From positions 30,717 to 94,716 of the IMG/VR virus record IMGVR_UViG_2675903066_000001: DNA of 64,000 nucleotides; one strand, 5' to 3'. Both the position numbers and the translations under genes were made by a program. The DNA comes from a virus. Its lineage: Duplodnaviria > Caudoviricetes. Shown in pieces: positions 1,856 through 60,595 of this stretch. A model generated the notes under the pieces. That model did not search any database and was not told the origin of the DNA. It saw nothing but the letters and a program-made list of their open reading frames with translations. The first letter of the stretch is position 1; the number at the start of each line of letters is the position of its first letter.

Positions 1856-1882
1856 GAGGGGAGCCGCCTCCTTCCGTCAGCG

Positions 1883-2644
1883 TTACCGCTGGCGCTCTGC
1901 GTGCGTTCGCAGCGCTGCCACCACCACATCCGCGAGCGGCACGGCACCGTCCCGCGCGCGGATGGCCGCGATCAGGCCCGTCACCTCGTCGTGCTGCGCG
2001 GCCGTCAGCGGCACGATCAGCTCGACCAGCGCGCCCGCCTTCGGCCGAGGAGGAGGCGCGGCCGCCGCGGCGGGGCCAACGTCGCCGGCGTCGTCCTCTT
2101 CGTCCTCGTCGTCCTGGCCCTCGTCGGCCTGGTCGTCGTCGACGTCGGCCAACTCGTCCTCGTCAACGTCGCGGGCAGAGGCGGGGACCGGGGCCGGCGC
2201 GGGCCTCGGCTGGGCGGGCTCGTCCTGCACGATCTCGATCTCGTTGCCGAGGTCGTGCAGGATGTCCGCGAGGTCCTCCTCCCGCCACCCCGTGCCGTCG
2301 AGGTCGGGAAGCGACTGGAGCAGCTCGGCGAGCTTGCCGTCGTCGTACTCTCCGTACTCGGCGAGCCGGTTGTCCGCCAGCATGATCCGCTTCGCGGTCT
2401 CGTCGTCCACGTCGATGACGACGGTGGGCACGTGCTTCAGCCCGGCCTTGGTTGCGCCGCGCCAGCGGTGCTCACCAGCGATGATCCGCATCCGGGACTT
2501 CTGCGCGACGACGGACCCGTAGAAGCCGTGCTTCCGGATCGACGCCACGATCACGTCGATGTCGCCGCGGTGCGGGTTGTCCGGGTGCGGCTTCAGGTCG
2601 CGGACCGCGACCATCCGGTATTCCTGCGGCGCGATCTCCGCCAT
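1883..2644 (-). CDS. ParB/Srx N-terminal domain protein with acidic linker
   Basis: LKPHPDNPH...IIAGEHRWR...LADNR ParB-nuclease signature, a common neighbour of terminases. Confidence 0.85.
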   Translation of the reverse strand: MAEIAPQEYRMVAVRDLKPHPDNPHRGDIDVIVASIRKHGFYGSVVAQKSRMRIIAGEHRWRGATKAGLKHVPTVVIDVDDETAKRIMLADNRLAEYGEYDDGKLAELLQSLPDLDGTGWREEDLADILHDLGNEIEIVQDEPAQPRPAPAPVPASARDVDEDELADVDDDQADEGQDDEDEEDDAGDVGPAAAAAPPPRPKAGALVELIVPLTAAQHDEVTGLIAAIRARDGAVPLADVVVAALRTHAERQR

Positions 2645-2662
2645 CAGCCCTCCCGCAGCAGG

Positions 2663-2902
2663 TCAGTATTCGGGGTGGTCGTCATCGGCTGCCACGGCAT
2701 CGATCCACTGCGGCGGGGCCGGCTCGACGACCTCGACGGTCTGCTCGGTCACCCACATCGCGCGGGCGCCGATCTTCTCCGAGAAGTCGTTGAGCGACTC
2801 GGTGTCGTCGCCGGGCTGGGCCTGGTCCACGATCAGCGCGAACGGCTCCTCGTGGATGCCGCCCATCTCGATCAGCGGGAGCTGCAGGACTTGGATGCGC
2901 AC
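2663..2902 (-). CDS. Hypothetical phage protein
   Basis: Fits the leftward operon and abuts the next ORF. Confidence 0.55.
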   Translation of the reverse strand: MRIQVLQLPLIEMGGIHEEPFALIVDQAQPGDDTESLNDFSEKIGARAMWVTEQTVEVVEPAPPQWIDAVAADDDHPEY

Positions 2903-3198
2903 TACTCGCCCGCCGCGCCCAGCTCGGAGAACCGGCGCTCGAAGATCGACGCCGCGACGGGCCAGAACTCGCCCCCGCCGTCGTGCAGGACGTAGTCGCC
3001 GAGGTACGCGCGGCGCATCCCCTCAGGCGTCTGGATGTCGACGTACTCGCCCGAGCGGCCGCGGAGCGCTGTCCGGCCGATGATGCCCTTCAGGTTCGAG
3101 TGCTTGTTGATCCAGGCCACGACCTCCGGGACCTGGCCGCCGAGGACCTTGACGGCCTCGACCAGCTCGGGCACGTGCTGGTACTCCTTGATGTCCAT
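2902..3198 (-). CDS. Hypothetical phage protein (GDY-motif family)
   Basis: VEAVK...TPEG...LGDYVL...GEFWPV...IFE pattern typical of small phage proteins; GGAG RBS. Confidence 0.65.
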   Translation of the reverse strand: MDIKEYQHVPELVEAVKVLGGQVPEVVAWINKHSNLKGIIGRTALRGRSGEYVDIQTPEGMRRAYLGDYVLHDGGGEFWPVAASIFERRFSELGAAGE

Positions 3199-3278
3199 GC
3201 CGCCACTCCATTCTTAGCGTGCGCGTGAATTTCCGCATTAGGTGGTTCTCTACTTAGGGGGCTAGGTAGAGTAAGAGC

Positions 3279-9098: not shown

Positions 9099-9344
9099 AT
9101 GCAGACGTACGAGGCCGGACGCCCGGTCGAACTGGACGCCCGGGAGCGGTTGATCCTCGTGTACCGCCTCGTCGCCGCCGAGCCGCTGTCGCGCAAGCAG
9201 CTTGGCGCCGTCCTGGGCATCTCGGACGCCAGGGTCAGGCAGCTGGAGTCCAAGCTGATGAGCAAGCTTCGGTTCGGCCTGACCGTGGAGTTTCCCGCAT
9301 CCGAGCAGTACGAGGTGCCGGCCCCGCGGGACCTGCCGCGCTGA
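9099..9344 (+). CDS. Stand-alone sigma-70 region 4-like protein
   Basis: LDARERLILVYR...LSRKQLGAVLGISDARVRQLESKLMSKLR; GGGAG RBS. Confidence 0.8.
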   Translation: MQTYEAGRPVELDARERLILVYRLVAAEPLSRKQLGAVLGISDARVRQLESKLMSKLRFGLTVEFPASEQYEVPAPRDLPR

Positions 9345-12639: not shown

Positions 12640-12704
12640 TTTGGATCTTGCCTTTCGGTTGGGGTGCCCGCCCCCGGTCGGGGGCGGGCGTAGGGGATGG
12701 TTTG

Positions 12705-13532
12705 TCAGTGGTTCCGCTGGCGCTTCATGCGCACCGAAAGCACGTAGATGGCCAGGGCGGCACCTACCAGCAACCAGGCGCAGACCTGCACCCACAGGGG
12801 CAACCACGGTTCATCCGTCGCCACGGGCGTCGGGGTCGGCGTGGTCCGCGTAGGCGTGGCGCTGGCGGTCGGGACGGCGCTACGGCGCGTGCTGGACGCG
12901 GTGCCCGTGGCGGACGGCGTAGCGGTGACCGTAGGGGCGGGCGAACCGTCCCGACCGTTCCTGCCGTCCCTGCCGGGCGTACCGGCGTTGCCCTGCGGGC
13001 CGGTCGTACCGGCAACGCCAGGCGTACCGGCGGGACCGGTCGCACCGGGCGCGCCCTTCTCGCCCTTCTCGCCCTTCGGACCTGCCGGGCCCTGGTCGCC
13101 CTGGTCACCCTTCGGGCCCTGGGGGCCTGCCGGACCCTGCTCGCCCTTCGGACCCTGCGCCCCTGCGGGTCCAGGGTCGCCGGGGTCGCCCTTCTCGCCC
13201 TTCTCGCCGGGCTCGCCCTGCGGACCCTGCGAACCGTTAACACCGGGCTCGCCCTGCGGTCCCTGCGGACCCTGCTCGCCCTGGTCGCCCTGCACGGACA
13301 CGTAGGGGATGCACACCGCGAACGAGAGTGCGGCCCCGCTGTCCATCGCGGTCGCCGTGACGGTCGGGCAGAACGTGCCCGTAAGGGTGACGGTCGGCGC
13401 TGCGACCGGTGTGGCACCGATCGCGCTGGGCGCTAACCCTGCCGTGATGGCCAGTACGGCGGCGGTGAGTGCGACGCTCGTAAGCGCCGCCCCCGCTGCC
13501 TTGGCCTGTCGTGTGTTCTTCATGGCGATCAC
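12705..13532 (-). CDS. Membrane-anchored collagen-like protein
   Basis: Signal-peptide-like N-terminus, about 39 uninterrupted Gly-X-Y triplets, Thr/Pro linker, C-terminal TM helix and basic tail. Confidence 0.9.
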
Positions 13533-13981
13533 TCTCGTTCCCTACGTAATGGGACGTCCAGGGCTGTCAAGTTTTTGTTATCGACACGTTATGAAAATCG
13601 GGCGCTGACATACCCCCGCCCCCTATCTGACCAGCGGTTCAGCATTAGGAAAGAAACCTAACTAAACTCCAGGCCGCGCCGAACCAAGATCCAACCACCC
13701 ACAAACAGCCGCCGGCATAGCCCACCCACACATCTCTTGGGCTGGTTGCCTTCGACTTGCTGTTGTCGCTTCTGAGGGCCTCTGTGGTGTGTCTGGTCTC
13801 CTTGTACCGGTGCGCGTGTGTTCGTTCGCGTGTGTGGACGCTGTCAGGTCTTTTGAGCGTGTTCTGTCTGCGTTGTCGCTTGCGCTTTGCGTTGTGCGCT
13901 CATGCGAAAACCCGCCATCGACGACCAGGTGCGTTGGCCTGGGTGCGTCGGTGACGGGTTTCGGGGTGGTGTCGCCTTGGG

Positions 13982-18291: not shown

Positions 18292-18486
18292 CTACTGCGA
18301 TGCCGTGGCGCGGAGCGCGAGCTGTCGCGCTGCTGCGATGTCGTCCGGGGTGACGTGGCCCTCGACGACGGCGAGCAGGGTCGCGCCGTCCGAGGACCAA
18401 ATAGCCGTGTTACGCGGTATGGCCTTCTTGTTTCGGCTGCGGTTCCGCTTGCGCTTTACGTCGAGCGCGTCGGCGGGAGTTAGCAC
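18292..18486 (-). CDS. Small hypothetical protein
   Basis: GTG at 18486 with AAGGAG RBS; contains a copy of the 19-bp motif. Confidence 0.45.
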   Translation of the reverse strand: MLTPADALDVKRKRNRSRNKKAIPRNTAIWSSDGATLLAVVEGHVTPDDIAAARQLALRATASQ

Positions 18487-25532: not shown

Positions 25533-25685
25533 TCACTCTCCTGGCTTTGTCAGTGGTACCGCTTGCGCTTTTGGCGAGGTGTTACGTGTGGTGTCCTCGC
25601 TTGGGGCTCGGTTCCGTTTCTGCTGGTTATTGCGGTCTCGGTGCCCTATTTGATCTTGTTTCGGACAGGCTGAACCGAGATCTCA

Positions 25686-25715
25686 ACCATATCGTGAGCA
25701 TGTCCTGTGTGTCCA
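25686..25715 (-). promoter_or_regulatory. Putative leftward housekeeping-type promoter
   Basis: TGGACA-N18-TATGGT on the minus strand, divergent from the repressor. Confidence 0.5.
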
Positions 25716-25864: not shown

Positions 25865-26371
25865 GTGCCCACCCCACCGCAGAGGCCTGCCGACGCGGCA
25901 CTCCTCCACCACCTCCGCACCCGGCGAGACGAGCTGCTGCCCGAAGTCCCTCTCAAGGCCATCGCCGACAAGGTCGCACGGACGGCGGGCTACAACTTCT
26001 ACCCCAACAAGCTGCGCCGCATCGAAAGCGGCGAGACCAGTGCCAGCGATCTCGACTACGCCTGGGTTGCCTGGGCAGTCAACGCCACGCCCAACCAGGT
26101 CGAGGAAGTCGGCCGGCCCGAGGCCGCCCGCCTGCTTCGCGAGATCATCGACAAGCACTCCCCCAAGGACACCATCCTGTCCGCAGTGCTCGCTCCCGAC
26201 GTAACCCCCGACGCCGTGCAAAAGCATCTCCGGCAGAAGCTTGAGGAGATCAGGTCGGCACCAAATTTCACGCCCGAGGAGCGGGCCAGCATGGAGGAGT
26301 TCCTCATCGCCCAGATCGAGCTTCTGCTCCAGAATGTTGGGCGTCAGATGGAGATGCTCCGCTCACGCTGA
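25865..26371 (+). CDS. XRE-like HTH repressor (candidate immunity repressor)
   Basis: LRTRRDE...LKAIADKV...LRRIESG; divergent from the early operon; GTG 25865 with GAAGG RBS. Confidence 0.65.
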   Translation: MPTPPQRPADAALLHHLRTRRDELLPEVPLKAIADKVARTAGYNFYPNKLRRIESGETSASDLDYAWVAWAVNATPNQVEEVGRPEAARLLREIIDKHSPKDTILSAVLAPDVTPDAVQKHLRQKLEEIRSAPNFTPEERASMEEFLIAQIELLLQNVGRQMEMLRSR

Positions 26372-33172: not shown

Positions 33173-33447
33173 ACTGTCCCTTCCGAATGCGCTACCGCTT
33201 GCGCTTTCTATGCGTCTTCCGCTGCGTTCGCGTGTGCGTGTAGTCGGTGCTGTGGTGGTCGGAGAGCGCGCATCGCTCATCTCCGATGCTATCCGACCGT
33301 CAGACAGGTTTATACCGTTAGGGGACATCTCAGAGCCCCTCAAAACCGGACATAACGGAACATTTGAGACGCGACAAAGCAGCGGCCGAACCAATACGGT
33401 GAGACACAGCACCAACCCGCCCCGCCACCACCACCCGGAGCAGCACC

Positions 33448-34287
33448 ATGCCCCGCAAGAAGTCCGACCCCAGAACGGTTGCGTTCGTCGAACCCGGAAA
33501 AGCGCAAGCGGAACCACAGGCACCTCGCAGGCCAATGCGCGTCCGGGAAGCCCAATGGACGAATCTCCACACCACCAGCGCCCGCCTCGACTCCACCACC
33601 GACGATCGGCTCACCGCCGCCGTGCAGCGCACCGGGCAAGGCCCGCAGGAGATCTGGGAAGACGCCATCAACTTCTTCTCCGATCGAACCGGCATCCCCG
33701 AGGAGATGCCGGCCACTGCGGACCTGAAGCTTCCAAGCCCCACGGAGTACCGCAAGGGCGGGCAGGACCTCCTCCAAACCACCGTTCGGCTCACCACCAA
33801 CACCAGAGCGCGTCTCGCTGCCGCAGCGTCGCGCCTCGGCCTGGGCGGAGCCGAGACCATCATCGAGGCACTCAACGCCTGGTTCGACGAGCTGGGCATC
33901 CCCGGCGAATACGACCGTGACAAGGTGTTCCAGCGGCCCACCCTGTACTCCACCGCCGCCAAGCTCGACGAGGCGACGCGCGCGCGAGTGAAAGCCGCCG
34001 CCGAGCAGACAGGCCAAAGCATTCAAGGGGTGTGGGAGACCGCGATCAACGCGTACGCCGGCCGCCATGGTGCACCCAAGCAGATGCCGGAAGGTTCGGA
34101 GGTGGCGTTGCCGACACCGCGAACGAAGAAGCGAGGCGGAGATGACAAGCCGACGGCTGTCCGGTTGACGGAGAACACCCGGGCCCGCCTGGTCGCGGTG
34201 TGCAGTCGCCAGTCCAGGACTGGCAGCGACGTGATCGCCGACGCATTGACGGCGTACTGTGATCGTCTCGATATCCCTGCGCCCTGA
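33448..34287 (+). CDS. Protein with four tandem ribbon-helix-helix domains
   Basis: Four repeats of T(S/T/A)(A/V)(R/K)L...T..R(L/V)...A(I/L).. ending in G/D-I/A-P. Confidence 0.75.
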   Translation: MPRKKSDPRTVAFVEPGKAQAEPQAPRRPMRVREAQWTNLHTTSARLDSTTDDRLTAAVQRTGQGPQEIWEDAINFFSDRTGIPEEMPATADLKLPSPTEYRKGGQDLLQTTVRLTTNTRARLAAAASRLGLGGAETIIEALNAWFDELGIPGEYDRDKVFQRPTLYSTAAKLDEATRARVKAAAEQTGQSIQGVWETAINAYAGRHGAPKQMPEGSEVALPTPRTKKRGGDDKPTAVRLTENTRARLVAVCSRQSRTGSDVIADALTAYCDRLDIPAP

Positions 34288-36061: not shown

Positions 36062-36076
36062 CTGTCCCCGCCGACA

Positions 36077-36113: not shown

Positions 36114-36129
36114 GATGCGGGACGGCAGA

Positions 36130-36483: not shown

Positions 36484-36489
36484 GGGTTC

Positions 36490-36909: not shown

Positions 36910-37150
36910 TCAGCAGTTCCCGCGCCTTGGCCGCGCGGCGCTGTGCCCGGTGTGTGACGGCGGGGTCCTGGTGGGCGCGTTCAACGGCTTCCTGCCATGC
37001 GAGGTCGGCGCGGCGGTCCTCCTCCATCTGGTGCAGGGCTGCCTGGTTGAAGAAGCTGGAGACGGATCGGGCGCGCCCGGCTTGGACCTGCTGCTGGGCG
37101 TAGGCGTGGGCCGCCTCGTCCACGGTGATGGTGATCGGCTTGGTGCTCAT
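36902..37150 (-). CDS. RHH antitoxin
   Basis: ITITVD...V.AGRA.SVSS...QA; overlaps the PIN gene. Confidence 0.65.
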   Translation of the reverse strand: MSTKPITITVDEAAHAYAQQQVQAGRARSVSSFFNQAALHQMEEDRRADLAWQEAVERAHQDPAVTHRAQRRAAKARELLNG

Positions 37151-37514: not shown

Positions 37515-37729
37515 CAGGTTTCTCCCGTCTCTCCATAGGTCTGGCGAAAGCGTAGCGGATTCTGCAAGCGGTAGCGCTGTCTGAATCAGCATTTCTAGTC
37601 GGGCAGGGACTGCCGGCGTGAGCGGTGCCGTGGCGATGGGCGGGGCTGGTTGTGAAGGAAGCACCGCGCACCTGGGGCTGCCTTGCTCCTGCAACAGCCG
37701 GTGCCGCGCGGCCGCGCCGCACACCTCGC

Positions 37730-40857: not shown

Positions 40858-40936
40858 CAGGGTCTCCTTGCGGGTGGGCCCCGCCCCGGCCGCCGGGGCG
40901 GGGTGAGGTTGCATGCGGTAGCGCTGGCGCTATCTG

Positions 40937-41389: not shown

Positions 41390-41423
41390 GAGTAGTGCCT
41401 TTCTGCCAGCGGTTGCGCTGGCG

Positions 41424-43349
41424 CTATGCGGTAAGGGCGTAGTCGTGGGCGAACCGGTCGAACTCGACGTTGAGGATCGCCTCGATGACAGCACACGCGA
41501 GGATCTCGGCCATGGGCGGAGGTACCGCGTTGCCGATCAGCTTGACCTTGTCGCGCGCGGTGTCGGCGACGAACCGGTAGTCGTCGCGGAACGACTGGGC
41601 ACGCTGCAGTTCCTTGAGCTTGAGCATCCGGAACTTGATGGACTGCACGTCGATCTGGCCGTCCGGGGTGAGCAGCGCCCATCGGTCGCGAGTCGGAACC
41701 GTTCCCAACGGCTCGTTCACGCCCTGCACGCGGCCGTTGCCGTAGTACGCCATCAGCAGCGTCTCGGGCATGGGCAGGCCGGGCGGAGCGGTGACGAGCG
41801 ACTGGTGCCCGGTCGTGGTGACCGTGCGCATGTGCTCGCTGGTCGGCGTGACGTGCTCGCGCCCGTCTCCCTTGGAGCCGTTGTTGCGCATCAGGAGCGA
41901 AGGCGGAGGCGACCAGCCGGGAGGGACGCCGAGCCCGTGATGGAAGCCGCCGGCCGTGACCGCATGCGCGGGGTCCTCGAACGCGGGCCTCGACCTGAAC
42001 TCGTCTCCACCGCCACGGAACGGGAACATCAGCGGCAGCATCCCGTCCTTCATGTCGGGGTCGCTGGCCAGCGCGTGGTTGGAGCCGTCCGAGACGAGGG
42101 TGGCCAGCGGGTCCGTGGTCGGGTTGGTGTTCCGCGCCCGGTCCGACCGCATCAGGGACAGGAACGCCGGGAACGCGCCGAGCTGCGAGTCAGGGTTGAA
42201 CGCGATGGCGTCTTCCAGCCGAGTCGTGCTGGTTCGTTTCGGCATGCTGGTCGGCCGGGCCTTCTTGCCGTCGCGCCCTTCGCACGGCACGACAAGCGCG
42301 TTGGCCTCGCGCGTGGTGAGCGCGGAGATCGGCTCGTCCACTCCTCTGGGGCCGTCGTTCCACGTGCCGCCCGCGGGAGTGATGAACGGCTTGATCCAGT
42401 GCTCTTCGACGCCAGCACGGATACGGGCGATCGTCTTCGGCGCCAGGCCCTCAGGCTTCTGCTTCGTCTTCTTCCTGGAGCCGATCGGCGTGCCGAGGTC
42501 GGTCCAGTCCACCGCGTAGGCGGCGGGGAGCACCGGAGGTTCGATGATCTGCCCCTGGCAGGACACCTCGGGACACACCCACACGTACTGGCCGTGCTTG
42601 ATGCCGTAGACGCCCATGTCCACGCCGTGGCGCTTCCACGCCCTGACGGCCTGCACCCATCCTCCGTGGCTGGGACAGAAGGCGTACGGGTCGAACCACT
42701 TGGAGTAGTTCGGGGTACGGCCCACGGACTCGTGGACGGCCGAGACGAGCATCCGGTCGCGGGACTGCGGGGTGGGCAGCGTGGTCCGGCCTTGTACGTG
42801 CGCGGCGTTGACGGCGTGGATCTGGACGATGTACCCGAGCTTCCGCAGCTCGCGGATCCACCGGTCCCAGTGCGCCCACAGGCGCGCTTGGACCACGTTC
42901 TCGACGCCGAAGCCCAGCACCGGCTTGCCGTGCTTCTCCTGGCAGTGGCGCAGGTAGGTGACGACCTCCTCCATCAGGGCGCGACTTCGGATGCGGGTCT
43001 TCTGGTGCTCGTCGAGGTCGTCCAGGTCGTCGGCCCAGAGGGCCATCTGGTTCTCTTTGTCGAAGTACCGCGTCTCGCCCGAGGCCGTACTGAACGCCGG
43101 ACACGCCGGAGATGCCCAGAAAAAGCTGGCGTAGGGGAACTTCTCGATGGCGTCGGCCGCCTGGACGTCGCCGAGCCAGAAGTCGACGTCGGGGTGGTTC
43201 GCGACGTACGTCCACTTCGCCGTCTTCGCGTGGTTGGCGGCGAACTTCAGCTTGGTGCCGGGGACGGCCGCGATTCCGGTTCCGGAGCCGCCGCCACCTG
43301 CGAACATCTCGACAACGTCGATGTCGTCGGGGAAAAGCCGGTTAAGCAC
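41424..43349 (-). CDS. DNA cytosine-C5 methyltransferase with long variable region
   Basis: FAGGGG (I), SPAC (IV), ENV (VI), QSRDR (VIII), RML...E..RAQSF (IX), GNAVPP (X). Confidence 0.93.
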   Translation of the reverse strand: MLNRLFPDDIDVVEMFAGGGGSGTGIAAVPGTKLKFAANHAKTAKWTYVANHPDVDFWLGDVQAADAIEKFPYASFFWASPACPAFSTASGETRYFDKENQMALWADDLDDLDEHQKTRIRSRALMEEVVTYLRHCQEKHGKPVLGFGVENVVQARLWAHWDRWIRELRKLGYIVQIHAVNAAHVQGRTTLPTPQSRDRMLVSAVHESVGRTPNYSKWFDPYAFCPSHGGWVQAVRAWKRHGVDMGVYGIKHGQYVWVCPEVSCQGQIIEPPVLPAAYAVDWTDLGTPIGSRKKTKQKPEGLAPKTIARIRAGVEEHWIKPFITPAGGTWNDGPRGVDEPISALTTREANALVVPCEGRDGKKARPTSMPKRTSTTRLEDAIAFNPDSQLGAFPAFLSLMRSDRARNTNPTTDPLATLVSDGSNHALASDPDMKDGMLPLMFPFRGGGDEFRSRPAFEDPAHAVTAGGFHHGLGVPPGWSPPPSLLMRNNGSKGDGREHVTPTSEHMRTVTTTGHQSLVTAPPGLPMPETLLMAYYGNGRVQGVNEPLGTVPTRDRWALLTPDGQIDVQSIKFRMLKLKELQRAQSFRDDYRFVADTARDKVKLIGNAVPPPMAEILACAVIEAILNVEFDRFAHDYALTA

Positions 43350-45726: not shown

Positions 45727-45811
45727 TCGGGTTCCTTTTCTCGATGCGCAAGCGGCACCGCTGGCGCTTTGTGCGTCAGCGGTGCCGGTGGTGGTTGCGG
45801 GGTTTGCGGAG

Positions 45812-49969: not shown

Positions 49970-50063
49970 CGGGGTTCGCCTTTCTGAGAGAACAGGAACG
50001 CCCCGCCCGAGGTGGGCGGGGCGAGTTAAGCCTGCAATACCGCTTGCGCTTTATGCTGTGTGA

Positions 50064-50711: not shown

Positions 50712-50915
50712 TTGGTCTCCTTCGTGGTGGCGGGAGTGGTTGCGGTGCCGCTTGCGCTATCTGCGATCTCTTTCGTGGCCAGCTCGACGAGGTGGCCGAG
50801 GAGTTGCCGGTTGGTGGCACGGGCGGCGGTGGTGGCCGGGCTGGTCACGCGCCCTTCTCCTTCGGTGTTTTCCCTGGTCGGTGCGGTTTTGATCTTGTTA
50901 TTCAGTTGGATCTCG

Positions 50916-53285: not shown

Positions 53286-53476
53286 GTAAGCCCGCTCGAC
53301 GGCCTTGCCGGGCCACCGAGTGGGAAGGCGGACGATCCTCCTCGTCGCTCAGCTCCGTACGCCGGCCAAAGCATTCGGGAGCCGAGCCACTTAGTGGACC
53401 GTCACGACTGAGACAGCCGGGCTCTGCCCGGCTTTCTTAGTGTCTGGGGGTTCTCCTCCGTTGTTCGTGGGGCCGG

Positions 53477-53728
53477 TCAGGCCGCCACGATCGCCTTTCG
53501 CGTCGTGTCGAGCGGAAGCTGCTGCTGGGCTTGCTGCGCCCGAGCCTGCTCCTCGATGGTCGTCGGTGTACGGCCGAGGGCTTGGGCTGCCAGGGCCTCG
53601 ACGACATGCGCCAGCGGCAGACCCGTCTTCTCCTGCAGGGCCTTCACCTCGTCCCACACGGAGGAGTCCCTCCAGGACATGGGATGCTTGGCGACCACCA
53701 CGCGTGGTCGGCCTACCTGTCCGCTCAT
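53477..53728 (-). CDS. Small putative DNA-binding (RHH/CopG-like) protein upstream of rep
   Basis: GRPR...WDEVKAL..KTGLPLAHVVEAL. Confidence 0.5.
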   Translation of the reverse strand: MSGQVGRPRVVVAKHPMSWRDSSVWDEVKALQEKTGLPLAHVVEALAAQALGRTPTTIEEQARAQQAQQQLPLDTTRKAIVAA

Positions 53729-54016
53729 GGTCGTCAATCATGGCGCATTCTGGATTTCGAAATCTAGAAGTACGCGGGTGTGTCGCACGCGAATTTTCGA
53801 TCATCGGCTTCGCAGGCCTTCCGTGCTGAGGGGTGGCGGGCGACTGTTCGGGCTGGGACTCATGGCCACGAGACCCGTGAGGCGTGTCTCGTTTGTCGTT
53901 CCAGTCGTGACAGTCGCGACTCGAACACCTTAGCGCGATGTGTGTGTTTGTCCAGTATGCGAGGTCAAAGCGCGTAGAAGAACGTGCGTGTGTCGCATTT
54001 GTCTCAAGCGTGGCGG

Positions 54017-54322
54017 TCACTCTCGACCGCCGTCACCCCAGCTCAGCACCATGACCATGACCACCGCAGACGCCACCAGCGCCGACCCCCACCCCATGCC
54101 CCACGTCAGGGCCGCCAGGATCCACGACGACGTCACCGTTAACGAGACAGGCCACAGACGAGCCCCCATCGCCACGAGGGGCACCAATGCCGACGACAGC
54201 AGGGCTGCGAAGGGCACCACCATGCTCAGGTCCGCAGGCACCTCCACCCAGACCACCGCCATCACCTGCCACCAGACCAGCCAGGCCAGAACCACCAGCA
54301 ACCGCGCCATCGTCGTCATCAC
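54017..54322 (-). CDS. Hydrophobic membrane protein downstream of traB
   Basis: Almost entirely hydrophobic; GTGA coupling. Confidence 0.55.
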   Translation of the reverse strand: MMTTMARLLVVLAWLVWWQVMAVVWVEVPADLSMVVPFAALLSSALVPLVAMGARLWPVSLTVTSSWILAALTWGMGWGSALVASAVVMVMVLSWGDGGRE

Positions 54323-56280
54323 GCCACACGCTCCCCGTCCGCGATCACATAACGATCACCGTCCATGTGAGCCCGGCCCTGCTCGACCAGCGACGCAGCA
54401 ACCCGGAACGCGACCGGCAGAGGCAGACCCGACCGCGTCACCAACTGCGGCCCCGTCAGCCCCTGGCCGGCGTCGGCCAGCAGGGACAGCACCGTCGTCT
54501 GCGCCGCGGCGGCGTCGGCCTGCGCGATGGTCGGCATCTGCACGGTCGTGTCGAGGTCGACCACGTCGGCCGTCGCGATCGCAGGCGAGCGACGCCCCTT
54601 GCCGCCGCGCTTTTTCCGCGCCGGCGCGGCGTCGTCGTGCTCGACAGCGATGTTCGGCAGCTTCACCGTCATGGCGGGCACGCCGCGCATGACCGCGCCC
54701 ATCCTCGGGATGTGGCGAGCACGCATCATCACCGGCCTGTCGGTGGCGCCCAGCAGGTAGCCGCAGCCCTTCGTCTTCTTCTGCGTACCGGGGAAATGAA
54801 TCTTGATCAGGTGCGGGTACGCGTTCATTCGCTCCCCGAACGTGGCCGACGCGATCCGGCGGTCGGAGACACGCAGCACCACGATGTTGCCGGAGTTCAC
54901 CAGGGCGAGAATGTCGCCGCCGCCCATCCCGCCGACGTACACGTTCTGGTCGAGCGTCCACACCGTCATGCCGCACTTCGAGCCCTCGGCGAGGATGTCG
55001 TGCACGATCGTGGCCAGGTCCTCGTGTCGCGCGACCAGGTGGAACTCGTCGATGGCGATGACCAGCATCGGCATGCCATGCACGCCCGGGTGGTCGTAGG
55101 ACTGCACTCCGCGCTGCGTAACCCCGTCCTCGTCGACCCACTCGATCTGCGACAGCAGCGCGCGGCGCCGCTGCATCTCCGCCTGGTAGGCGTACAGCCG
55201 CTGACGGATGGCATTGATGCCGAGCGCGTGCGGCACGTACGGCAGCAGCGACGGGCAGCTCTGCCCGTCCTGCGGGTCGAGGTAGTCGAGCACGATCCGG
55301 CCCTCGGTGCGGGCGAACTCCGCTGAAGCGATCTTCAGGATCGACGACTTGCCCGTCCGCATCGCGCCGAAGATCCCGACCGGCAGCGGCCCCGACCCCG
55401 GCTCCCACACCTGCAACGCGCCATCGCCCGCGCCGTCCTCGAACGGGCCGATCGGCAGGACACCGGTGTCCATGTCGAGCAGCGGCTCAGTCCACAGCTC
55501 CGGCTCCAGGACAGCGAGCTGCTTCAGGAACGTCACCATGGCGGCGTTCTGCTCGCCACCGGGCGGCTCCTCCACGTGCACGAAGTTGATGGCCACCCCG
55601 AAGTCGGAGCAGATCCGCTTGCGCGCCTGCATGGCGTCCTCGGTGGTGTGCCCGTCCAGCACGATCCGGTAGCGCGTCCCCGCAGCGCCGCCGCGCTGAA
55701 ACTCCTCGCGGTTGGTCAGCTTGGAGTCGACCAGGGCGCCCTTCCGACCCGCCGTCTTCTGCGCCCACCGGATCACGATCGGGTCGGACGCCTCCAGCTC
55801 CTTGGCCTGCGCCGCCGCTTCCAGCGCGCGGCGCTTGCCCTTCGGACGGGTGATGTAGTTGCGGTGACGCCACACGTGCGGGACGGTCCACAGGCCGGCC
55901 GCCGCGAAGTACGCGCTCTGCATCACGCCGAACGCGCCCAGCTCGGCCGCGCCCGGCAGCCACGCGGCCGCGCCGGCCTGCCACCACCGCCACGCGAGGG
56001 CCTCGCGCGTCTTCGGGAACAGGGTGCGGACCGTCGCCGCGGTGGCGGCGGCGGCGGCCTCACCGACGAGGGCCTGCCACGCTGGCACGTCGGCCAGGTG
56101 AAGGAGCGCGCCCGTGCCCCACACGCCGGCGGCGGTGACGTGCGGGGCGACCGCGCGGCCGTAGCGGTGCGCGGCGCTCCTGGCGAACGCGGACGCGGCC
56201 TCGGCGAGGGCCTCGGTCTCGTCCTCGTGCTGGTCGGGCTGCGCTTCGGGCTGCTGGTCGGGCGTGGTGTGGCGGGCCAC
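54319..56280 (-). CDS. traB: FtsK/SpoIIIE-family conjugative DNA translocase (TraB-like)
   Basis: N-terminal TM region, Walker A GAMRTGKS, EMQRR, Walker B IAIDE, G.GY, C-terminal wHTH. Confidence 0.85.
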   Translation of the reverse strand: MARHTTPDQQPEAQPDQHEDETEALAEAASAFARSAAHRYGRAVAPHVTAAGVWGTGALLHLADVPAWQALVGEAAAAATAATVRTLFPKTREALAWRWWQAGAAAWLPGAAELGAFGVMQSAYFAAAGLWTVPHVWRHRNYITRPKGKRRALEAAAQAKELEASDPIVIRWAQKTAGRKGALVDSKLTNREEFQRGGAAGTRYRIVLDGHTTEDAMQARKRICSDFGVAINFVHVEEPPGGEQNAAMVTFLKQLAVLEPELWTEPLLDMDTGVLPIGPFEDGAGDGALQVWEPGSGPLPVGIFGAMRTGKSSILKIASAEFARTEGRIVLDYLDPQDGQSCPSLLPYVPHALGINAIRQRLYAYQAEMQRRRALLSQIEWVDEDGVTQRGVQSYDHPGVHGMPMLVIAIDEFHLVARHEDLATIVHDILAEGSKCGMTVWTLDQNVYVGGMGGGDILALVNSGNIVVLRVSDRRIASATFGERMNAYPHLIKIHFPGTQKKTKGCGYLLGATDRPVMMRARHIPRMGAVMRGVPAMTVKLPNIAVEHDDAAPARKKRGGKGRRSPAIATADVVDLDTTVQMPTIAQADAAAAQTTVLSLLADAGQGLTGPQLVTRSGLPLPVAFRVAASLVEQGRAHMDGDRYVIADGERVA

Positions 56281-58264: not shown

Positions 58265-58503
58265 CACTGGCCACCGCCCGCCTGTTTGTTGAGCGCCTCC
58301 GCGAACTGGCGGGTCTGCTCGGCCAGGTCGGTGCAGGCCTTTTGCGCCTGGCGCGGGTCGCGCTTGTACAGCTCGGCCAACTCCGACATGAGCCAGCACG
58401 CCGTCCGCCAGTACAGCCGCCACGGCGTGGCCGTCTCCCGGGCCGCGGCCGCGATGTTCGCGACGTGCTCGGCGCGCCGGTTCGCGGCGCGATTCGACAC
58501 CAT
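58264..58503 (-). CDS. Hypothetical protein
   Basis: GGAGG RBS. Confidence 0.55.
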   Translation of the reverse strand: MVSNRAANRRAEHVANIAAAARETATPWRLYWRTACWLMSELAELYKRDPRQAQKACTDLAEQTRQFAEALNKQAGGGQ

Positions 58504-58652
58504 CTGTCCTCCGCTACGGTGCGTGATTCGTGTTACGGTGGCCTCGCGCGCGCAACGCGCAACGCGCAACGCGCCCGCGCGTTGGGCCCCCCGCACACCC
58601 GGCCTTGACCTGGTCTGCAGCGTTACGAGCCCACGAGCGCGATCACGGACAG

Positions 58653-59039
58653 TCACAGCGAACCCCCGGCGCACTCCCTCGCGAACGCGTCCCAATCCGG
58701 CTCGTGAGCGATCTCCGGCAGGGTGTCCAGGTGGCTCGCGAGCACCGAGCGAGGAACCCGCAGCGCGACCGGCTCTGCCCCCGGCACCCGGACGTCCCAC
58801 CGGATGGACTCCTCGTCCATCGGCCACGCGGACAGCGCCGCGCACTCCGCGCGCCCGACCCGGCCCGCGGCGAGCACGTCCAGCGGGACGTCGACGCCGG
58901 CGCCGCCCTCGACGGAGAGGCGGACGTGGTACGGGCTGTCGGCGCGGAACTCCAGCTCGGTCATGACGATCGCCGCGGCGTCGTCGGCGAGGTGGTCCCA
59001 GGCCGGGATCGGCATGTATTGGGCGGCGGCCGCGGTCAC
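58653..59039 (-). CDS. Divergent SsgA-like (SALP) protein
   Basis: ELEFRADSPYHVRL...DVL.AG........WP...P.....LRVP...L..HL resembles the SsgA pattern Y..DPYAV...RDLL.EG...VWP. Confidence 0.55.
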   Translation of the reverse strand: MTAAAAQYMPIPAWDHLADDAAAIVMTELEFRADSPYHVRLSVEGGAGVDVPLDVLAAGRVGRAECAALSAWPMDEESIRWDVRVPGAEPVALRVPRSVLASHLDTLPEIAHEPDWDAFARECAGGSL

Positions 59040-60541
59040 TCTGCATCTCCTGTCGTGGCGGTCTGCATGGTCCGGACGAGCGGCTGCTCGGCGGCTACGT
59101 CTGGTCCGGTGCTTGGTCCGGTCGTGCGGCCCCCGCGGGCGGCGCGCTGGACCGGTTTGCCCGGCCCGGAGAGAACCCGGACCAACTCGTTCGCGACGTC
59201 GGTCGAGGCGGAATGGCCCTCAGCGCGTAGCGCGTCCTGCAGACTGCGGCGGGTCAGCCGGACGCCCTCGCGCCGGAGCCGCGCAGCGATCCGCTTACCT
59301 TGCGGGAGCAGCGCGTTCACCCGATCCGCTGGTCCGGTCGAACCGGTCCCGGCGGGCCGCTTGCTGGTCCGGTTGGTCCGGTCATGCCGACCCGGGCCCG
59401 GCGCGTCGGCCGGAAGCGTTTGGTCCGAATGGTCCCCTGCGGCGACCGGACCAACAGCGCGCCTTCGAGCCCGCCTCTTGGTCCGGATCGGCAGCCGGTA
59501 TCGGTCCCGGATCCGGGTCCGGAATCGCGGCCGCGGTGCGGTCTCCCCCACCTGCTTTTGGTCCGGTTGGTCAGCGGGCACAGGCGGCGTCTGGTCCGCC
59601 TCGACAGCCGGACCAAGCGGCGGCCGGTAGCGCGGCACCAGGCCGACGCCGACCTCGTTCACGAACACCGCGATGTCGTGCACCGCCTCGGCCGCCCGCG
59701 GGTCGGGTCCGTGAATTTCCTCCGCGAGCGCCGCCATCCGAGTCAATGTCAGCTGCAGCTGCGAGCGCTGCGCCTCGATGACCGCGCGCTGGGCCTCGAC
59801 CATCGACTTCCACGTCTTCTTCACGCGGCGGCGCTGGCGAACTACCTGCACCGCGATGCTCGGAGACTGGACACCCTCGCCGACCGCCCACCGAAACGCC
59901 TTGAACGTCTCAGGCAGGTGCAGCAGCCAACGCATCGGCGAGAACTTCGGCGCTCTCGGGTCGATGAGGCCCTTTTCGCGCAGGTCCTTGCGGTGCAGGT
60001 GACGCGAGTGCATCGACCACAGCCACGGGGACGCGAGCGAGCACGCCGCGAACAGCTCCGGGTAGTCCTCCACGTGCGTGTACGACAGGTACCCCGCGCC
60101 CGCGCCGACCAGATACGAAAGCATCCGGGTCGTCCAGGCGGCGTCACCTTCCCGAAGAGCGACGTGCGCGTGCCAGGACACGTACACCGCGACCGACTCG
60201 ACGATCGCGGCCGCGAGTATGGCCCACAGCGGGGGAAGACCACGCGCCATGAAGGCCATCGCCTGGCCGGAGACGGCGACGCCGTTGACGCCGATGTTCG
60301 TCACCGACATGACGGCCATGTGGCCGGCTGTCTTTGCGCGGGTCTTCCATTGCTCGACCGAGCGGCGGCGGCGCTTCTCTCGATCGGTACGGGCGGACTC
60401 GTCTCGTGCTCGGGCTTCCTCTTCGGACGCCCGAGCGTCCTCGCGCCGGGCCTCTTCGGACAGGCGGCGGCGCTCGATCCGGAGGCGCTCGGCTTCGAGA
60501 GCGTCCCTTTCCTTCCGGGGATCGGGCCTACGCAGGAACAT
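59036..60541 (-). CDS. DUF2637/SpdB-like spread protein
   Basis: Coiled coil, TM helices, PKFSPMRWLLH..ET..A motif, Pro/Arg-rich tail; GGGAG RBS before ATG 60541. Confidence 0.7.
   Translation of the reverse strand: MFLRRPDPRKERDALEAERLRIERRRLSEEARREDARASEEEARARDESARTDREKRRRRSVEQWKTRAKTAGHMAVMSVTNIGVNGVAVSGQAMAFMARGLPPLWAILAAAIVESVAVYVSWHAHVALREGDAAWTTRMLSYLVGAGAGYLSYTHVEDYPELFAACSLASPWLWSMHSRHLHRKDLREKGLIDPRAPKFSPMRWLLHLPETFKAFRWAVGEGVQSPSIAVQVVRQRRRVKKTWKSMVEAQRAVIEAQRSQLQLTLTRMAALAEEIHGPDPRAAEAVHDIAVFVNEVGVGLVPRYRPPLGPAVEADQTPPVPADQPDQKQVGETAPRPRFRTRIRDRYRLPIRTKRRARRRAVGPVAAGDHSDQTLPADAPGPGRHDRTNRTSKRPAGTGSTGPADRVNALLPQGKRIAARLRREGVRLTRRSLQDALRAEGHSASTDVANELVRVLSGPGKPVQRAARGGRTTGPSTGPDVAAEQPLVRTMQTATTGDAE
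59068..59615. repeat. Cluster of 8-bp TGGTCCGG repeats (candidate clt/TRS)
   Basis: Eight direct copies (59068, 59102, 59114, 59330, 59365, 59374, 59479, 59559) and three inverted copies (59177, 59446, 59608), plus near matches. Confidence 0.75.
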
Positions 60542-60595
60542 CAGAACTCCCAATGTGGTGGCGGTACCGCTGGCGCTTTTTGCGAAGCTGCAGGG

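What the first reader, a model, noticed from the sequence alone, without database searches (positions are those of the whole stretch)
1880..60579. Element-wide regulon: a 19-bp motif repeated 13 times and oriented with transcription
Seen (+ strand text): 1880 GCGTTACCGCTGGCGCTCT; 12708 GTGGTTCCGCTGGCGCTTC; 13870 GCGTTGTCGCTTGCGCTTT; 18439 GCGGTTCCGCTTGCGCTTT; 25553 GTGGTACCGCTTGCGCTTT; 33189 GCGCTACCGCTTGCGCTTT; 40915 GCGGTAGCGCTGGCGCTAT; 41409 GCGGTTGCGCTGGCGCTAT; 45752 GCGGCACCGCTGGCGCTTT; 50034 GCAATACCGCTTGCGCTTT; 50742 GCGGTGCCGCTTGCGCTAT; 60561 GCGGTACCGCTGGCGCTTT. All 12 lie in leftward-transcribed regions. The single reversed copy (33499 AAAGCGCAAGCGGAACCAC) lies in a rightward gene. 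Most copies sit about 17-70 bp upstream of a start codon, and several overlap or abut the previous stop codon. At three sites (12708, 40915, 50034) a GC hairpin lies between the motif and the next RBS. The core GCGG-TA-CCGC is a dyad, and the 45752 copy extends into a near palindrome. Established analogues are mycobacteriophage L5 stoperators, phiC31 conserved inverted repeats and phage-specific promoters, and the ArdK-bound CUP repeats of IncN plasmids. Inference: one regulator coordinates packaging (terS), recombination, anti-restriction, partition and conjugation genes, acting as a switch between the phage and conjugative lifestyles.
Basis: partly seen in the sequence, partly recalled or inferred. 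Interest (0 to 1): 0.85.

Follow-up and report, generated by a model that had tools for sequence, protein, structure and literature searches.

The report
Oriented operator repeats on a phage-plasmid
A roughly 29-base DNA signal that sits between genes about 15 times on a 95-kb virus-like plasmid of a soil actinomycete is real, specific to that element and kept at the same gene junctions in its relatives. It is most likely the docking site of one element-encoded regulator, much like the known 'stoperator' sites of other actinomycete phages.

Summary
All 13 listed copies are at the stated coordinates (14 matches, 0.07 expected by chance). The window is the last 64 kb of a 94.7-kb contig (C75), which carries two more copies. 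A 29-position matrix scores 15 sites on C75 and none in the other 8.17 Mb of the genome.

In gene orientation the motif is CRnAAAGCGCMAGCGGTACCGCWGnCAnA. It is a decayed 26-28-bp palindrome whose upstream half is better kept than its downstream half.

Six related Nonomuraea elements carry their own variants at the same junctions, before the genes for tape measure, major head protein, terS, the first early gene and others.

C75 encodes no RNA polymerase, sigma region 2 or NusG paralogue. At the early operon the motif lies about 100 nt downstream of a conserved sigma-70-type promoter.

The best reading is a dispersed operator for one element-encoded DNA-binding regulator that acts on transcription through gene junctions, as stoperators do. 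The conserved single-chain 4xRHH protein is the best candidate binder, ahead of the cI/XRE-like repressor. The sigma-r4 candidate is excluded, being absent from 6 of 6 relatives.

A 'switch between phage and conjugative lifestyles' is not supported. No RNA data exist, so the mechanism is inferred. This is a new variant of a known kind.

The parts
1880..1898 (-). Motif copy. It contains the stop codon of the ParB_N gene and lies 24 nt before the terS start (1855). The full 29-mer spans start-7 to start+21 for this and every other plus-strand-listed copy.
   Evidence: the junction is kept in 4 of 4 close relatives
12708..12726 (-). Motif copy, abutted by the stop codon of the gene before it. It is followed by a GC hairpin, then the RBS and the start of a 228-aa gene at 12639.
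   Evidence: kept in 3 of 3 relatives that have the orthologous gene
12666..12689 (-). GC-rich hairpin (10-bp stem) between the motif and the RBS.
   Evidence: orthologous junctions keep a hairpin with a different stem sequence
13870..13888 (-). Degenerate motif copy (core GCGACAACGC) in a 1.2-kb A/C-rich stretch where I called no gene.
   Evidence: a similar copy occurs in G402
18439..18457 (-). Motif copy before a run of small genes; the next well-supported start is 18279.
   Evidence: kept in 4 of 4 close relatives
25553..25571 (-). Motif copy 20 nt before the first gene of the early operon (327 aa, then YqaJ and a RecT-like gene). It lies in the 5' leader about 100 nt downstream of the predicted early promoter.
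   Evidence: kept in 4 of 4 close relatives at 9-20 nt
25686..25715 (-). Sigma-70-type promoter candidate, TGGACA-18-TATGGT, for the early operon.
   Evidence: equivalent -35/-10 pairs are read in G470, G457 and G402 (my reading of the printed sequences)
25644..25669 (.). Separate inverted repeat just downstream of the early promoter. It is a candidate operator of the cI/XRE-like repressor and is unrelated to the motif.
25865..26371 (+). cI/XRE-like repressor candidate (168 aa), divergent from the early operon.
   Evidence: No Pfam hit. AF2 model pLDDT 77.6; fold hits to ClgR, DdrO and lambda cI at weak E-values. Present in 6 of 6 relatives.
33189..33207 (-). Motif copy 16 nt before a 73-aa gene (start 33172). 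It is the left member of a divergent pair.
33499..33517 (+). The single reversed copy. It is co-oriented with the 4xRHH gene and begins 51 nt after that gene's ATG (codon 18 onward).
   Evidence: by my arithmetic on the coordinates the offset is the same in G470 and G457
33448..34287 (+). Single-chain protein with four ribbon-helix-helix units (279 aa). This is the best candidate binder.
   Evidence: Weak ParG, TraY, RelB and PutA-RHH hits. AF2 pLDDT 79 with four beta-alpha-alpha units. Fold hits to F-relaxosome ~110-aa chains, AvtR and single-chain Arc. Homologues carry only Nonomuraea labels plus one [Actinomadura] parvosata label.
37556..37584 (.). Weak, nearly symmetric copy (15.8 and 9.9 bits in the two orientations) at the edge of the G000-specific ParA insertion.
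40915..40933 (-). Motif copy, then a GC hairpin, the RBS and an ATG at 40857.
40879..40903 (-). GC-rich hairpin (11-bp stem).
41409..41427 (-). Motif copy 19 nt before a 150-aa gene.
   Evidence: kept in the one relative with the gene
45743..45770 (-). Near-palindromic copy (both strands match) 91 nt before a 194-aa gene that heads the DUF3560-methylase and C5-methylase genes. A second degenerate copy lies at 45772-45800.
   Evidence: kept in 4 of 4 close relatives, and as a tandem double site in G470 and G457
50034..50052 (-). Motif copy, then a hairpin with a T-rich tail, the RBS and the start of a 178-aa gene at 49969.
50000..50022 (-). GC hairpin followed by GTTCCTGTTCTCTC; it looks like a terminator.
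50742..50760 (-). Motif copy 30 nt before a 215-aa gene.
60561..60579 (-). Perfect-consensus copy 19 nt before a 501-aa gene that heads the operon ending in the FtsK-like 653-aa protein.
   Evidence: kept in 2 of 2 close relatives with the gene

Best explanation
The motif is a dispersed double-stranded-DNA operator. It is read by one regulator that the element itself encodes.

Its ancestral form is a 26-28-bp palindrome, AAGnCGCAAGCGG-NN-CCGCTTGCGnCTT. In this element the half that an incoming RNA polymerase meets first (AAAGCGCMAGCGG) is strictly kept, and the far half has relaxed to CCGCWGnCA.

The sites lie between a promoter or an upstream gene and the next ribosome-binding site. The bound protein therefore most likely acts on transcription passing through the junction, as a polar roadblock or silencer, the way stoperators do. 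This would keep structural, early, methylase and putative transfer operons quiet together while the element is carried.

The most likely binder is the conserved single-chain four-RHH protein (33448-34287), which carries a copy of the site inside its own 5' end. The cI/XRE-like protein (25865-26371) is the second candidate.

Shown here: enrichment, element specificity, polarity, positional conservation, co-variation of the site with the element, and the absence of an element RNA polymerase, sigma region 2 or NusG paralogue.

Inferred: protein binding, the identity of the binder, repression rather than activation, and action on elongation.
For: (1) Real and element-specific. There are 14 matches against 0.07 expected; 16 of 28 genome-wide matches lie on one 94.7-kb contig; and there are 15 matrix hits at 20 bits or more on C75 against 0 elsewhere.

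(2) Sequence is conserved, not just structure. 11 of the 19 core positions are invariant in 15 of 15 copies. Yet 7 of 15 copies (A at position 7, mostly A at 19) cannot pair beyond GCGG/CCGC. By contrast, the adjacent GC hairpins keep their structure with different stem sequences in relatives.

(3) Positional conservation. Wherever the downstream gene has an orthologue in the four close relatives (proteins 60-90% identical), a site is present. It is found before terS in 4 of 4, the first early gene in 4 of 4, the 194-aa gene in 4 of 4 and the 106-aa gene in 4 of 4. It precedes the major head gene in 6 of 6 relatives, reading the G457 site. Distances are similar: 19, 20, 19 and 9 nt at the early gene, and 24, 23, 21 and 23 nt at terS.

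(4) The site co-varies with the element: GCGC[C/A]AGCGG here; GCGACAGCGG in three relatives; CGT[A/C]AGCGG in G479; and CCGCAAGCGG, fully palindromic, in the two distant relatives.

(5) Polarity. The upstream half carries more information than the downstream half in 7 of 7 elements when sites are chosen by a symmetric rule. By matrix orientation, 52 of 60 sites in five elements read with the nearest gene (my count). 5 of the 8 exceptions score within 6 bits in the two orientations.

(6) It is not the promoter at the one place where this can be judged. A sigma-70-type -35/-10 pair, conserved in 4 elements, lies about 100 nt upstream of the 25553 copy. Only 2 of 10 divergent intergenic gaps on C75 carry the motif, while 12 of the 15 strong copies lie between co-directional genes.

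(7) No element RNA polymerase or sigma was found. There is no PF02357 or PF04542 hit on C75, no PF00940 hit, and no DxDGD motif in a called gene other than an HNH protein.

(8) The binder.
- The RHH and XRE-like proteins are present in 6 of 6 relatives.
- The RHH protein models as four beta-alpha-alpha units. Its best fold matches are single-chain tandem RHH DNA binders.
- The four elements with a 4xRHH protein show the stronger half-site asymmetry (2.2-3.4 bits). The three with a 2xRHH protein show 0.7-1.2 bits.
- The XRE-like recognition helix is the same in G000, G402 and G457, although their site consensus differs at position 6.
- The immunity region holds separate palindromes that could serve the XRE-like protein.

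(9) Precedent. Cluster A repressors bind more than 20 asymmetric sites in promoters and short intergenic spaces. Those sites are oriented with transcription, and repression is lost when they are reversed (passages of PMC9283540). R4-type stoperators are reported in Streptomyces phages (passage of PMC10276819).
Against: - No binding, expression or transcript-end data exist.
- At three junctions the motif sits just upstream of a conserved terminator-like hairpin, where an extra roadblock seems redundant.
- The arm differences are not random. 56 are of the type that still gives G-U pairs in the antisense-strand RNA, against 19 for the sense strand. The antisense fold is more stable in 14 of 15 copies here, whereas control intergenic windows split 217 to 195. 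A simple operator model does not predict this.
- Orientation with transcription is confounded with strand, because 121 of 141 called genes share one strand. Relatives' sites are orthologous, so counts across elements are not independent.
- The 4xRHH-versus-asymmetry correlation rests on 7 related elements.
- In G479, 3 of 6 scored sites point against the genes.
- G402 shows no site at the 5' end of its RHH gene.
- My gene calls come from a home-made codon-usage caller. Start codons, and so distances, are approximate.
Confidence: 0.5

Rival explanations
1. RNA-level signal in the sense transcript. Once transcribed into the 5' leader or the intercistronic spacer, the motif would be read by an RNA-binding protein or a nuclease. 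It would control processing, mRNA stability, translation of the next gene, or read-through of the hairpin that follows at some junctions.
For: Every strong copy is on the transcribed strand, 16-91 nt before a start codon, and none lies deep inside a gene. At the early operon the motif is in the 5' leader. Three copies are followed by conserved terminator-like hairpins, so read-through must be allowed somehow. T7 RNase III sites and BglG-type RAT elements are precedents; these are recalled, not checked here.
Against: The sense-strand hairpin is the weaker one, with a mean of -7.5 against -11.2 kcal/mol. 7 of 15 copies cannot form more than a 4-bp stem. The arm differences are mostly C-A mismatches in the sense RNA. 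A 13-nt linear RNA recognition sequence would be unusual. Fully palindromic forms in relatives, and half-sites that co-vary with the element, are typical of duplex DNA read by a dimer or tandem protein. No RNA-binding domain was seen among the 45 distinct proteins scanned against Pfam, PHROGs or NCBIfam, but most small genes were not scanned.
Confidence: 0.15
2. Element-specific internal promoters. The motif would be recognised by host RNA polymerase redirected by a small element-encoded factor, or it would be a promoter with an operator built in. The hairpins that follow some copies would then be 5' stabilisers of the new transcripts.
For: The motif is a long asymmetric consensus oriented with the genes, a short fixed-range distance before ribosome-binding sites, with an invariant C followed by a frequent A at +22/+23 that could be a start site. 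This layout resembles T7-type promoter sets (recalled).
Against: - No RNA polymerase, sigma region 2 or NusG paralogue was found on C75.
- The only sigma-like gene (region 4 alone) is missing from 6 of 6 relatives.
- There is no TANNNT-type -10 in the motif and no conserved sequence at promoter distance on either side.
- Only 2 of 10 divergent gaps carry the motif.
- The early operon has its own conserved sigma-70-type promoter upstream of the motif.
- The motif is absent from the host chromosome, so a host alternative sigma is unlikely.
- In relatives many copies are perfect palindromes.
Confidence: 0.12
3. Strand-specific hairpin on the antisense (window plus) strand. This would be weak terminators or insulators against antisense transcription (hairpin followed by GCGCTTT), or a single-stranded-DNA hairpin signal used in replication or transfer.
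For: The antisense fold is more stable in 14 of 15 copies here, and in 45 of 62 sites across 7 elements against 15 where the sense fold is more stable. Controls show no such bias. There are 56 antisense-wobble against 19 sense-wobble arm differences. The conserved AAA upstream becomes a TTT tail after the hairpin on that strand.
Against: 99 of the 174 arm differences are transversions, which break the pair on both strands. The wobble-type bias sits at two positions (4 and 6), as a different half-site preference would. The T tract is only 3-5 nt. A terminator needs no conserved stem sequence, yet this stem is conserved across elements. The one reversed copy follows its gene, not the strand.
Confidence: 0.08
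4. DNA sites for recombination or genome architecture. These would be targets of the element's XerC/D-like tyrosine recombinase (an 11-6-11 layout around GGTACC), or hot spots for module exchange, rather than signals for gene expression.
For: The motif is 28 bp long with one arm better kept, which recalls dif-type sites (recalled). A tyrosine recombinase is conserved in 4 of 4 close relatives. Some variable genes are bracketed by copies, such as 40915/41409, and a weak copy lies at the edge of the G000-specific ParA insertion. Cluster O phages show a gene flanked by their 17-bp repeat (passage of PMC4351075).
Against: Fifteen directly repeated active recombination sites would delete the genome between them, yet gene order is kept across relatives. 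The inverted arms are separated by only 2 bp. The sites keep a tight relation to start codons. The two distant relatives with the motif lack a clear orthologue of this recombinase in the stretches fetched.
Confidence: 0.05

Closest known systems
Repressor-stoperator systems of Cluster A mycobacteriophages (L5 gp71, TipsytheTRex) and of Streptomyces phage R4 and its relatives
   Same: Both have many copies of one site dispersed over a temperate actinophage genome, in short intergenic spaces and near the early lytic operon. In both, orientation correlates with the direction of transcription, and some Cluster A phages are likewise maintained with partition genes. The Cluster A properties are quoted from passages of PMC9283540; R4 and phiScoe come from a passage of PMC10276819.
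   Different: The site here is 26-29 bp and derives from a palindrome with two unequal halves. It is not a 13-bp fully asymmetric site read by a monomer. At the early operon it lies about 100 nt downstream of the predicted promoter rather than on its -35. Neither candidate binder matches any phage record. The XRE-like model matches cI/ClgR-type folds, and no Cluster A repressor appears among the listed hits. The favoured binder is an RHH protein.
17-bp dyad repeats of Cluster O mycobacteriophages (TGTTCGGNNNCCGAACA)
   Same: They are dyad-symmetric, number more than 30 copies per genome, are mostly intergenic or at gene 5' ends, and their function is unknown (abstract and passages of PMC4351075).
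   Different: The Cluster O repeats show no meaningful orientation, and about a third lie in coding regions (same passages). Here the copies are polar and, apart from the RHH-gene copy, are kept out of coding sequence.
C1 operators of phage-plasmid P1 and the conserved inverted repeats of phiC31
   Same: One repressor with many dispersed operators controls a large temperate element. P1 is a phage-plasmid of about 94 kb, and phiC31 is an actinomycete phage.
   Different: As recalled, the P1 operators overlap sigma-70 promoters and are 17-bp asymmetric sites. The phiC31 repeats are 17-bp palindromes without polarity. No homology of sites or proteins was tested.
Single-chain or tandem RHH regulators: TraY of F, AvtR of an archaeal lipothrixvirus, and omega of pSM19035
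   Same: The best fold matches of the candidate binder are the ~110-aa chains of the F relaxosome, AvtR and single-chain Arc. The NCBIfam TraY model gives a weak hit. As recalled, omega and AvtR act on several promoters of their replicon through short repeated subsites in direct and inverted order. That resembles the AGCGC/AGCGG/CCGCT subsites seen here.
   Different: The protein here has four RHH units in one chain, that is, two TraY-like modules. Its homologues carry only Nonomuraea labels plus one [Actinomadura] parvosata label. No dispersed, polar set of about 15 sites is known to me for an RHH protein. Binding is not shown.

Membership tests
Repressor-stoperator system (Cluster A / R4 type) | Many copies of one repressor site dispersed over the phage genome, in short intergenic spaces | tested here: met
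   15 strong copies on 94.7 kb, all in gaps or at gene edges apart from the RHH-gene copy
Repressor-stoperator system (Cluster A / R4 type) | Site orientation correlates with the direction of transcription | tested here: met
   15 of 15 strong copies on C75 and 52 of 60 in five elements are co-oriented with the nearest gene. The test is confounded by the strand bias of the genes.
Repressor-stoperator system (Cluster A / R4 type) | Short (13-14 bp) fully asymmetric site read by a monomer | tested here: not met
   The site is 26-29 bp with a dyad core, and is fully palindromic in distant relatives
Repressor-stoperator system (Cluster A / R4 type) | Repressor related to L5 gp71 / TipsytheTRex (HTH plus stoperator domain) | tested here: not met
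   tblastn of both candidates against 50,697 phage records gave no match at E of 0.01 or less. No such repressor appears among the listed fold hits.
Repressor-stoperator system (Cluster A / R4 type) | One site overlaps the early lytic promoter | tested here: inconclusive
   The copy at 25553 lies about 100 nt downstream of the predicted -10. The promoter is a consensus match only.
Repressor-stoperator system (Cluster A / R4 type) | Orientation-dependent block of transcription elongation | not testable with these tools
   This needs reporter assays; no RNA runs are available
Intrinsic terminator / REP-like hairpin | Structure is conserved while sequence is free; a stable stem followed by a U tract in the direction of transcription | tested here: not met
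   Sequence is conserved. 7 of 15 copies lack a stem beyond 4 bp, the sense fold is weak, and no U tract lies downstream. True hairpins next to the motif behave differently.
Phage RNA-polymerase promoter set (T7 type) | The element encodes its own RNA polymerase or sigma factor | tested here: not met
   No PF00940, PF04542 or PF02357 hit on C75 and no catalytic DxDGD motif in a candidate gene. The control genomes for PF00940 do not contain the family, so that search alone is weak.
RHH-operator regulon (omega / TraY / AvtR type) | The regulator has the ribbon-helix-helix fold | tested here: met
   AF2 model with four beta-alpha-alpha units, pLDDT 79. Weak family hits and fold hits.
RHH-operator regulon (omega / TraY / AvtR type) | The regulator binds the repeated subsites | not testable with these tools
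   Only indirect support exists: conservation in 6 of 6 relatives, a site within its own gene, and asymmetry that tracks the 4x versus 2x form

The most novel reading that the evidence does not exclude
A stoperator-like silencing system built on a different protein fold. A single polypeptide with four ribbon-helix-helix units (two TraY-like modules) would read a two-part, polar 28-bp operator. From about 15 gene junctions it would hold down transcription of an entire ~95-kb Nonomuraea element that combines a tailed-phage genome with plasmid-partition genes and possibly actinomycete-type transfer genes. Duplication of the RHH module (2x in some relatives, 4x here) would have allowed the once-symmetric operator to become polar.
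Probability: 0.25. Interest if true: 0.7.

Novelty: new variant of a known kind. Interest (0 to 1): 0.5.

Why it matters
Dispersed, oriented repressor sites that stop RNA polymerase mid-operon are so far tied to one repressor family in Cluster A mycobacteriophages and R4-like Streptomyces phages. How orientation matters there is still unexplained.

An independent system would give a second, comparable case for studying polar roadblocks. This one has a dyad-derived site, a likely RHH binder and natural symmetric and asymmetric variants in seven related elements.

It also gives a simple handle for recognising and delimiting an uncharacterised family of ~95-125-kb temperate elements in Nonomuraea, a genus of antibiotic producers with few genetic tools. 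The handle is the motif plus the regulator. Such elements might be engineered into vectors or tightly silenced expression cassettes.

Tried and rejected
- The look-up of sequencing runs was busy twice. When it answered it listed three DNA holders and no RNA holder. There is therefore no transcript evidence either way, and read laying was not used.
- Megablast of 20 kb of the window found no phage record and only one 73%-identical 566-bp plasmid stretch.
- A 17-mer with 2 mismatches over 401 genomes of the family was uninformative. Every genome had 5-90 chance matches, fewer than the reversed-pattern control.
- ops/RfaH-like recruitment was considered because of the shared GCGGTA. It was dropped because the only NusG gene in the genome is on another contig.
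- An N4-type hairpin promoter and a T7-type promoter were dropped for lack of any RNA polymerase gene.
- A -35-like reading of CTGACA at the 3' edge was dropped, because a -10 at 17 bp would fall on or past the start codon at the closest sites.
- An invertible-promoter reading of the divergent pair 33189/33499 was dropped, because 13 further copies lie in direct orientation.
- A profile search of the XRE-like family against PDB sequences gave nothing below E=0.3.
- An exact-pattern scan of IMG/VR gave 18 loci. Only one 99-kb viral contig had two matches, and I did not analyse it further.
- The Pfam FtsK_SpoIIIE search gave E=0.34 on C75, so 'conjugation' stays a lead.
- The supplementary tables of PMC10276819, which list stoperator sites, could not be seen. 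I therefore did not compare the R4 site sequence with this motif.

Full report
**1. The observation**

- The consensus with up to three mismatches matches 14 times in the window, against 0.07 expected.
- All 13 copies in the finding are at the stated coordinates. The extra match is the opposite-strand reading of the near-palindromic 45752 copy.
- The window is the last 64 kb of a 94,716-bp contig, C75, of an 8.27-Mb, 70.9% G+C genome in 85 contigs.
- Genome-wide, 16 of 28 matches lie on C75, including two upstream of the window. The other 12, with 2-3 mismatches each, are scattered over 9 other contigs.
- Aligned in gene orientation, the motif extends to about 29 bp: CRnAAAGCGCMAGCGGTACCGCWGnCAnA, with an invariant C at +22.
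- A matrix of these 29 positions finds 15 sites at 20 bits or more on C75 and none in the remaining 8.17 Mb. The matrix was trained on those sites, so only the absence elsewhere counts.

**2. The element**

- C75 carries the following:
  - a large terminase, a terS-like HTH protein, a ParB_N protein, a D12 methylase and a tyrosine recombinase;
  - a YqaJ exonuclease, a RecT-like protein, ParA, a C5 methylase and a DUF3560-methylase;
  - upstream of the window, a portal, a minor head protein, a scaffold-like protein, a major head protein and a tape measure.
- A 653-aa P-loop protein with a C-terminal winged helix has only weak FtsK/EccC-type hits. Its language-model neighbours are FtsK-plus-wHTH proteins of actinomycetes. 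A transfer function is a lead, not a finding.
- Homologues of two element proteins carry Nonomuraea labels, apart from one RHH homologue labelled [Actinomadura] parvosata.
- Genes at the two ends of C75 are neighbours in a relative, so C75 is probably circular.

**3. Where the copies sit**

I used a home-made codon-usage gene caller, so start codons are approximate.

- All 15 strong copies lie in gaps or at gene edges and read in the direction of the next gene.
- The next start codon follows 16-91 nt after the 19-mer in 12 cases.
- Three copies contain or abut the previous stop codon.
- Of the 62 gaps of 25 bp or more that I listed on C75, 13 hold a copy.
- Only 2 of 10 divergent gaps hold one, while 12 of the 15 strong copies lie between co-directional genes.
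- Three copies are followed by GC hairpins with 9-11-bp stems before the ribosome-binding site. In relatives the same junctions keep a hairpin whose stem sequence differs. These hairpins are therefore structure-selected, unlike the motif.

**4. Relatives**

- A search with the RecT-like protein in 100 other genomes of the genus found five close relatives (63-69% identity) and two distant ones (42-44%).
- Four close relatives and both distant ones were fetched. The close ones are syntenic with C75 at 60-90% protein identity.
- Each carries 6-14 matrix hits of a related motif.
- Wherever the downstream gene has an orthologue, a site is present at the same junction and at a similar distance:
  - terS: 4 of 4 close relatives, at 21-24 nt;
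  - first early gene: 4 of 4, at 9-20 nt;
  - major head gene: 6 of 6 relatives, the G457 site being read;
  - the 194-aa gene: 4 of 4;
  - the 501-aa gene: 2 of 2 close relatives plus one distant relative.
- The consensus shifts with the element. In the two distant relatives it is a full 26-28-bp palindrome, AAGnCGCAAGCGG-NN-CCGCTTGCGnCTT.

**5. Polarity**

- I chose sites by a symmetric rule: the core AGCGGNNCCGCT with at most one mismatch, and G at position 5 of both halves.
- Under that rule, the outer part of the upstream half carries more information than that of the downstream half in 7 of 7 elements. The differences are 2.6, 2.6, 2.2 and 3.4 bits in the four elements with a 4xRHH protein. 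They are 0.7, 1.2 and 1.0 bits in the three with a 2xRHH protein.
- By matrix orientation, 52 of 60 sites in five elements point with the nearest gene. 5 of the 8 exceptions score within 6 bits in the two orientations.
- Sites in different elements are orthologous, so these counts are not independent.
- On C75 most genes share one strand. The single reversed copy, in the plus-strand RHH gene, is thus the main evidence that orientation follows genes rather than a DNA strand.

**6. What the motif is not**

- Not a promoter for an element polymerase. C75 has no PF00940, PF04542 or PF02357 hit and no polymerase-type DxDGD motif.
- The one sigma-like gene (region 4 only, 9099-9344) is absent from 6 of 6 relatives.
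- At the early operon, a sigma-70-type promoter (TGGACA-18-TATGGT) has equivalent -35/-10 pairs in three relatives. It lies about 100 nt upstream of the motif, so the motif sits in the leader there.
- Not a generic terminator or a REP-type hairpin. Specific bases are conserved, 7 of 15 copies cannot pair beyond 4 bp, and the sense-strand fold is weak.

**7. An unexplained bias**

- The antisense-strand fold is more stable than the sense fold in 14 of 15 copies on C75, and in 45 of 62 sites overall against 15 for the sense strand. Control intergenic windows split 217 to 195.
- Arm differences are 56 of the antisense-wobble type, 19 of the sense-wobble type and 99 transversions. The wobble-type bias is concentrated at positions 4 and 6.
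- This may reflect a different base preference of the downstream half-site, selection against a stable hairpin in the mRNA, or a function of the antisense strand. I cannot tell which.

**8. Who binds**

- Two DNA-binding regulators are conserved in 6 of 6 relatives. A third HTH protein, the terS-like one, is also conserved in 6 of 6 but is read as the small terminase and is not considered a candidate.
- The 168-aa protein divergent from the early operon models with a cI/XRE-type helix-turn-helix. Its fold hits are ClgR, DdrO and lambda cI, at weak E-values.
  - Its recognition helix is identical in three elements whose motif consensus differs at position 6.
  - Separate palindromes in the immunity region could be its operators.
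- The 279-aa protein at 33448-34287 models as four beta-alpha-alpha units with pLDDT 79.
  - Its best fold matches are the ~110-aa chains of the F relaxosome, AvtR and single-chain Arc.
  - Weak TraY, RelB, ParG and PutA-RHH family hits agree with this fold.
  - It carries a motif copy 51 nt into its own reading frame, at the same offset in two relatives (for the frames; offsets computed by me from coordinates).
  - Three relatives have a two-unit version, and those have the more symmetric sites.
- I therefore favour the RHH protein, at roughly one chance in three. Binding is not shown.

**9. Mechanism and comparison**

- The anatomy matches repressor-stoperator systems. Those have many sites in short intergenic spaces and near the early operon, oriented with transcription, and repression is lost when a site is reversed (passages of PMC9283540; R4-type sites in Streptomyces phages, passage of PMC10276819).
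- It differs in site architecture: a 26-29-bp decayed dyad against a 13-bp asymmetric site. It also differs in placement at the early operon and in the candidate binder. Neither candidate matches any of 50,697 phage records.
- The Cluster O 17-bp dyad repeats are similar in number and placement but lack orientation (PMC4351075).
- I therefore do not file this as a member of the Cluster A family. I read it as a system that probably works like one.

**10. Verdict**

This is a real, conserved, element-specific regulatory repeat. The mechanism is inferred and no expression data are available. It is a new variant of a known kind and of moderate interest.

Noticed in passing
window 53127-54016 (C75:83843-84732): The Rep-like gene and the FtsK-like operon are neighbours on C75. 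In relative G402 they lie about 87 kb apart, at the two ends of the homologous region inside a 9.07-Mb contig, and the 98.5-kb contig of G457 breaks at the same point. This gap may hold the attachment site or the ends of the element. C75 itself looks like the circular, non-integrated form.
   Followed up: partly
window 34563-37150: ParA, a 247-aa protein and three small genes next to the RHH gene have no counterpart in 6 of 6 relatives (ParA and the 247-aa protein tested; the small genes). This looks like a recent insertion of a partition module, which could explain plasmid-like carriage of this copy.
   Followed up: partly
window 28543-29244 and 29283-29759: A 233-aa protein consists of three tandem GntR-type winged-helix domains with no effector domain. 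Next to it is a 158-aa paralogue. It is conserved in the 4 close relatives. This architecture is unusual and its target is unknown.
   Followed up: no
window 54319-56280 and 62018-62752: A P-loop protein with weak FtsK/EccC similarity and a C-terminal winged helix, together with a HutC/GntR-type regulator, recalls the TraB and KorA/TraR pair of actinomycete conjugative elements (recalled). Here the pair sits inside a tailed-phage genome. If real, this would be a phage-AICE hybrid.
   Followed up: partly
window 25644-25669 and 25767-25783: Two inverted repeats unrelated to the motif lie in the immunity region. One is just downstream of the predicted early promoter and is conserved in three relatives. 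They are likely operators of the cI/XRE-like repressor.
   Followed up: partly
window 13533-14778: This is a 1.2-kb A/C-rich stretch where I called no gene, holding a degenerate motif copy. An HNH-motif reading frame starts just beyond it, at 14779-15267. It could be a missed gene, an RNA or an origin.
   Followed up: no
window 45743-45800; G470:C14:107494-107549; G457:C133:4189-4238: The junction before the 194-aa gene carries two tandem sites about 22-28 bp apart in three elements. This is the only double site seen.
   Followed up: no
all motif copies on C75: The downstream arm differs from the upstream arm mainly by G-to-A changes on the sense strand. As a result the antisense-strand RNA folds better in 14 of 15 copies. 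This is unexplained.
   Followed up: partly
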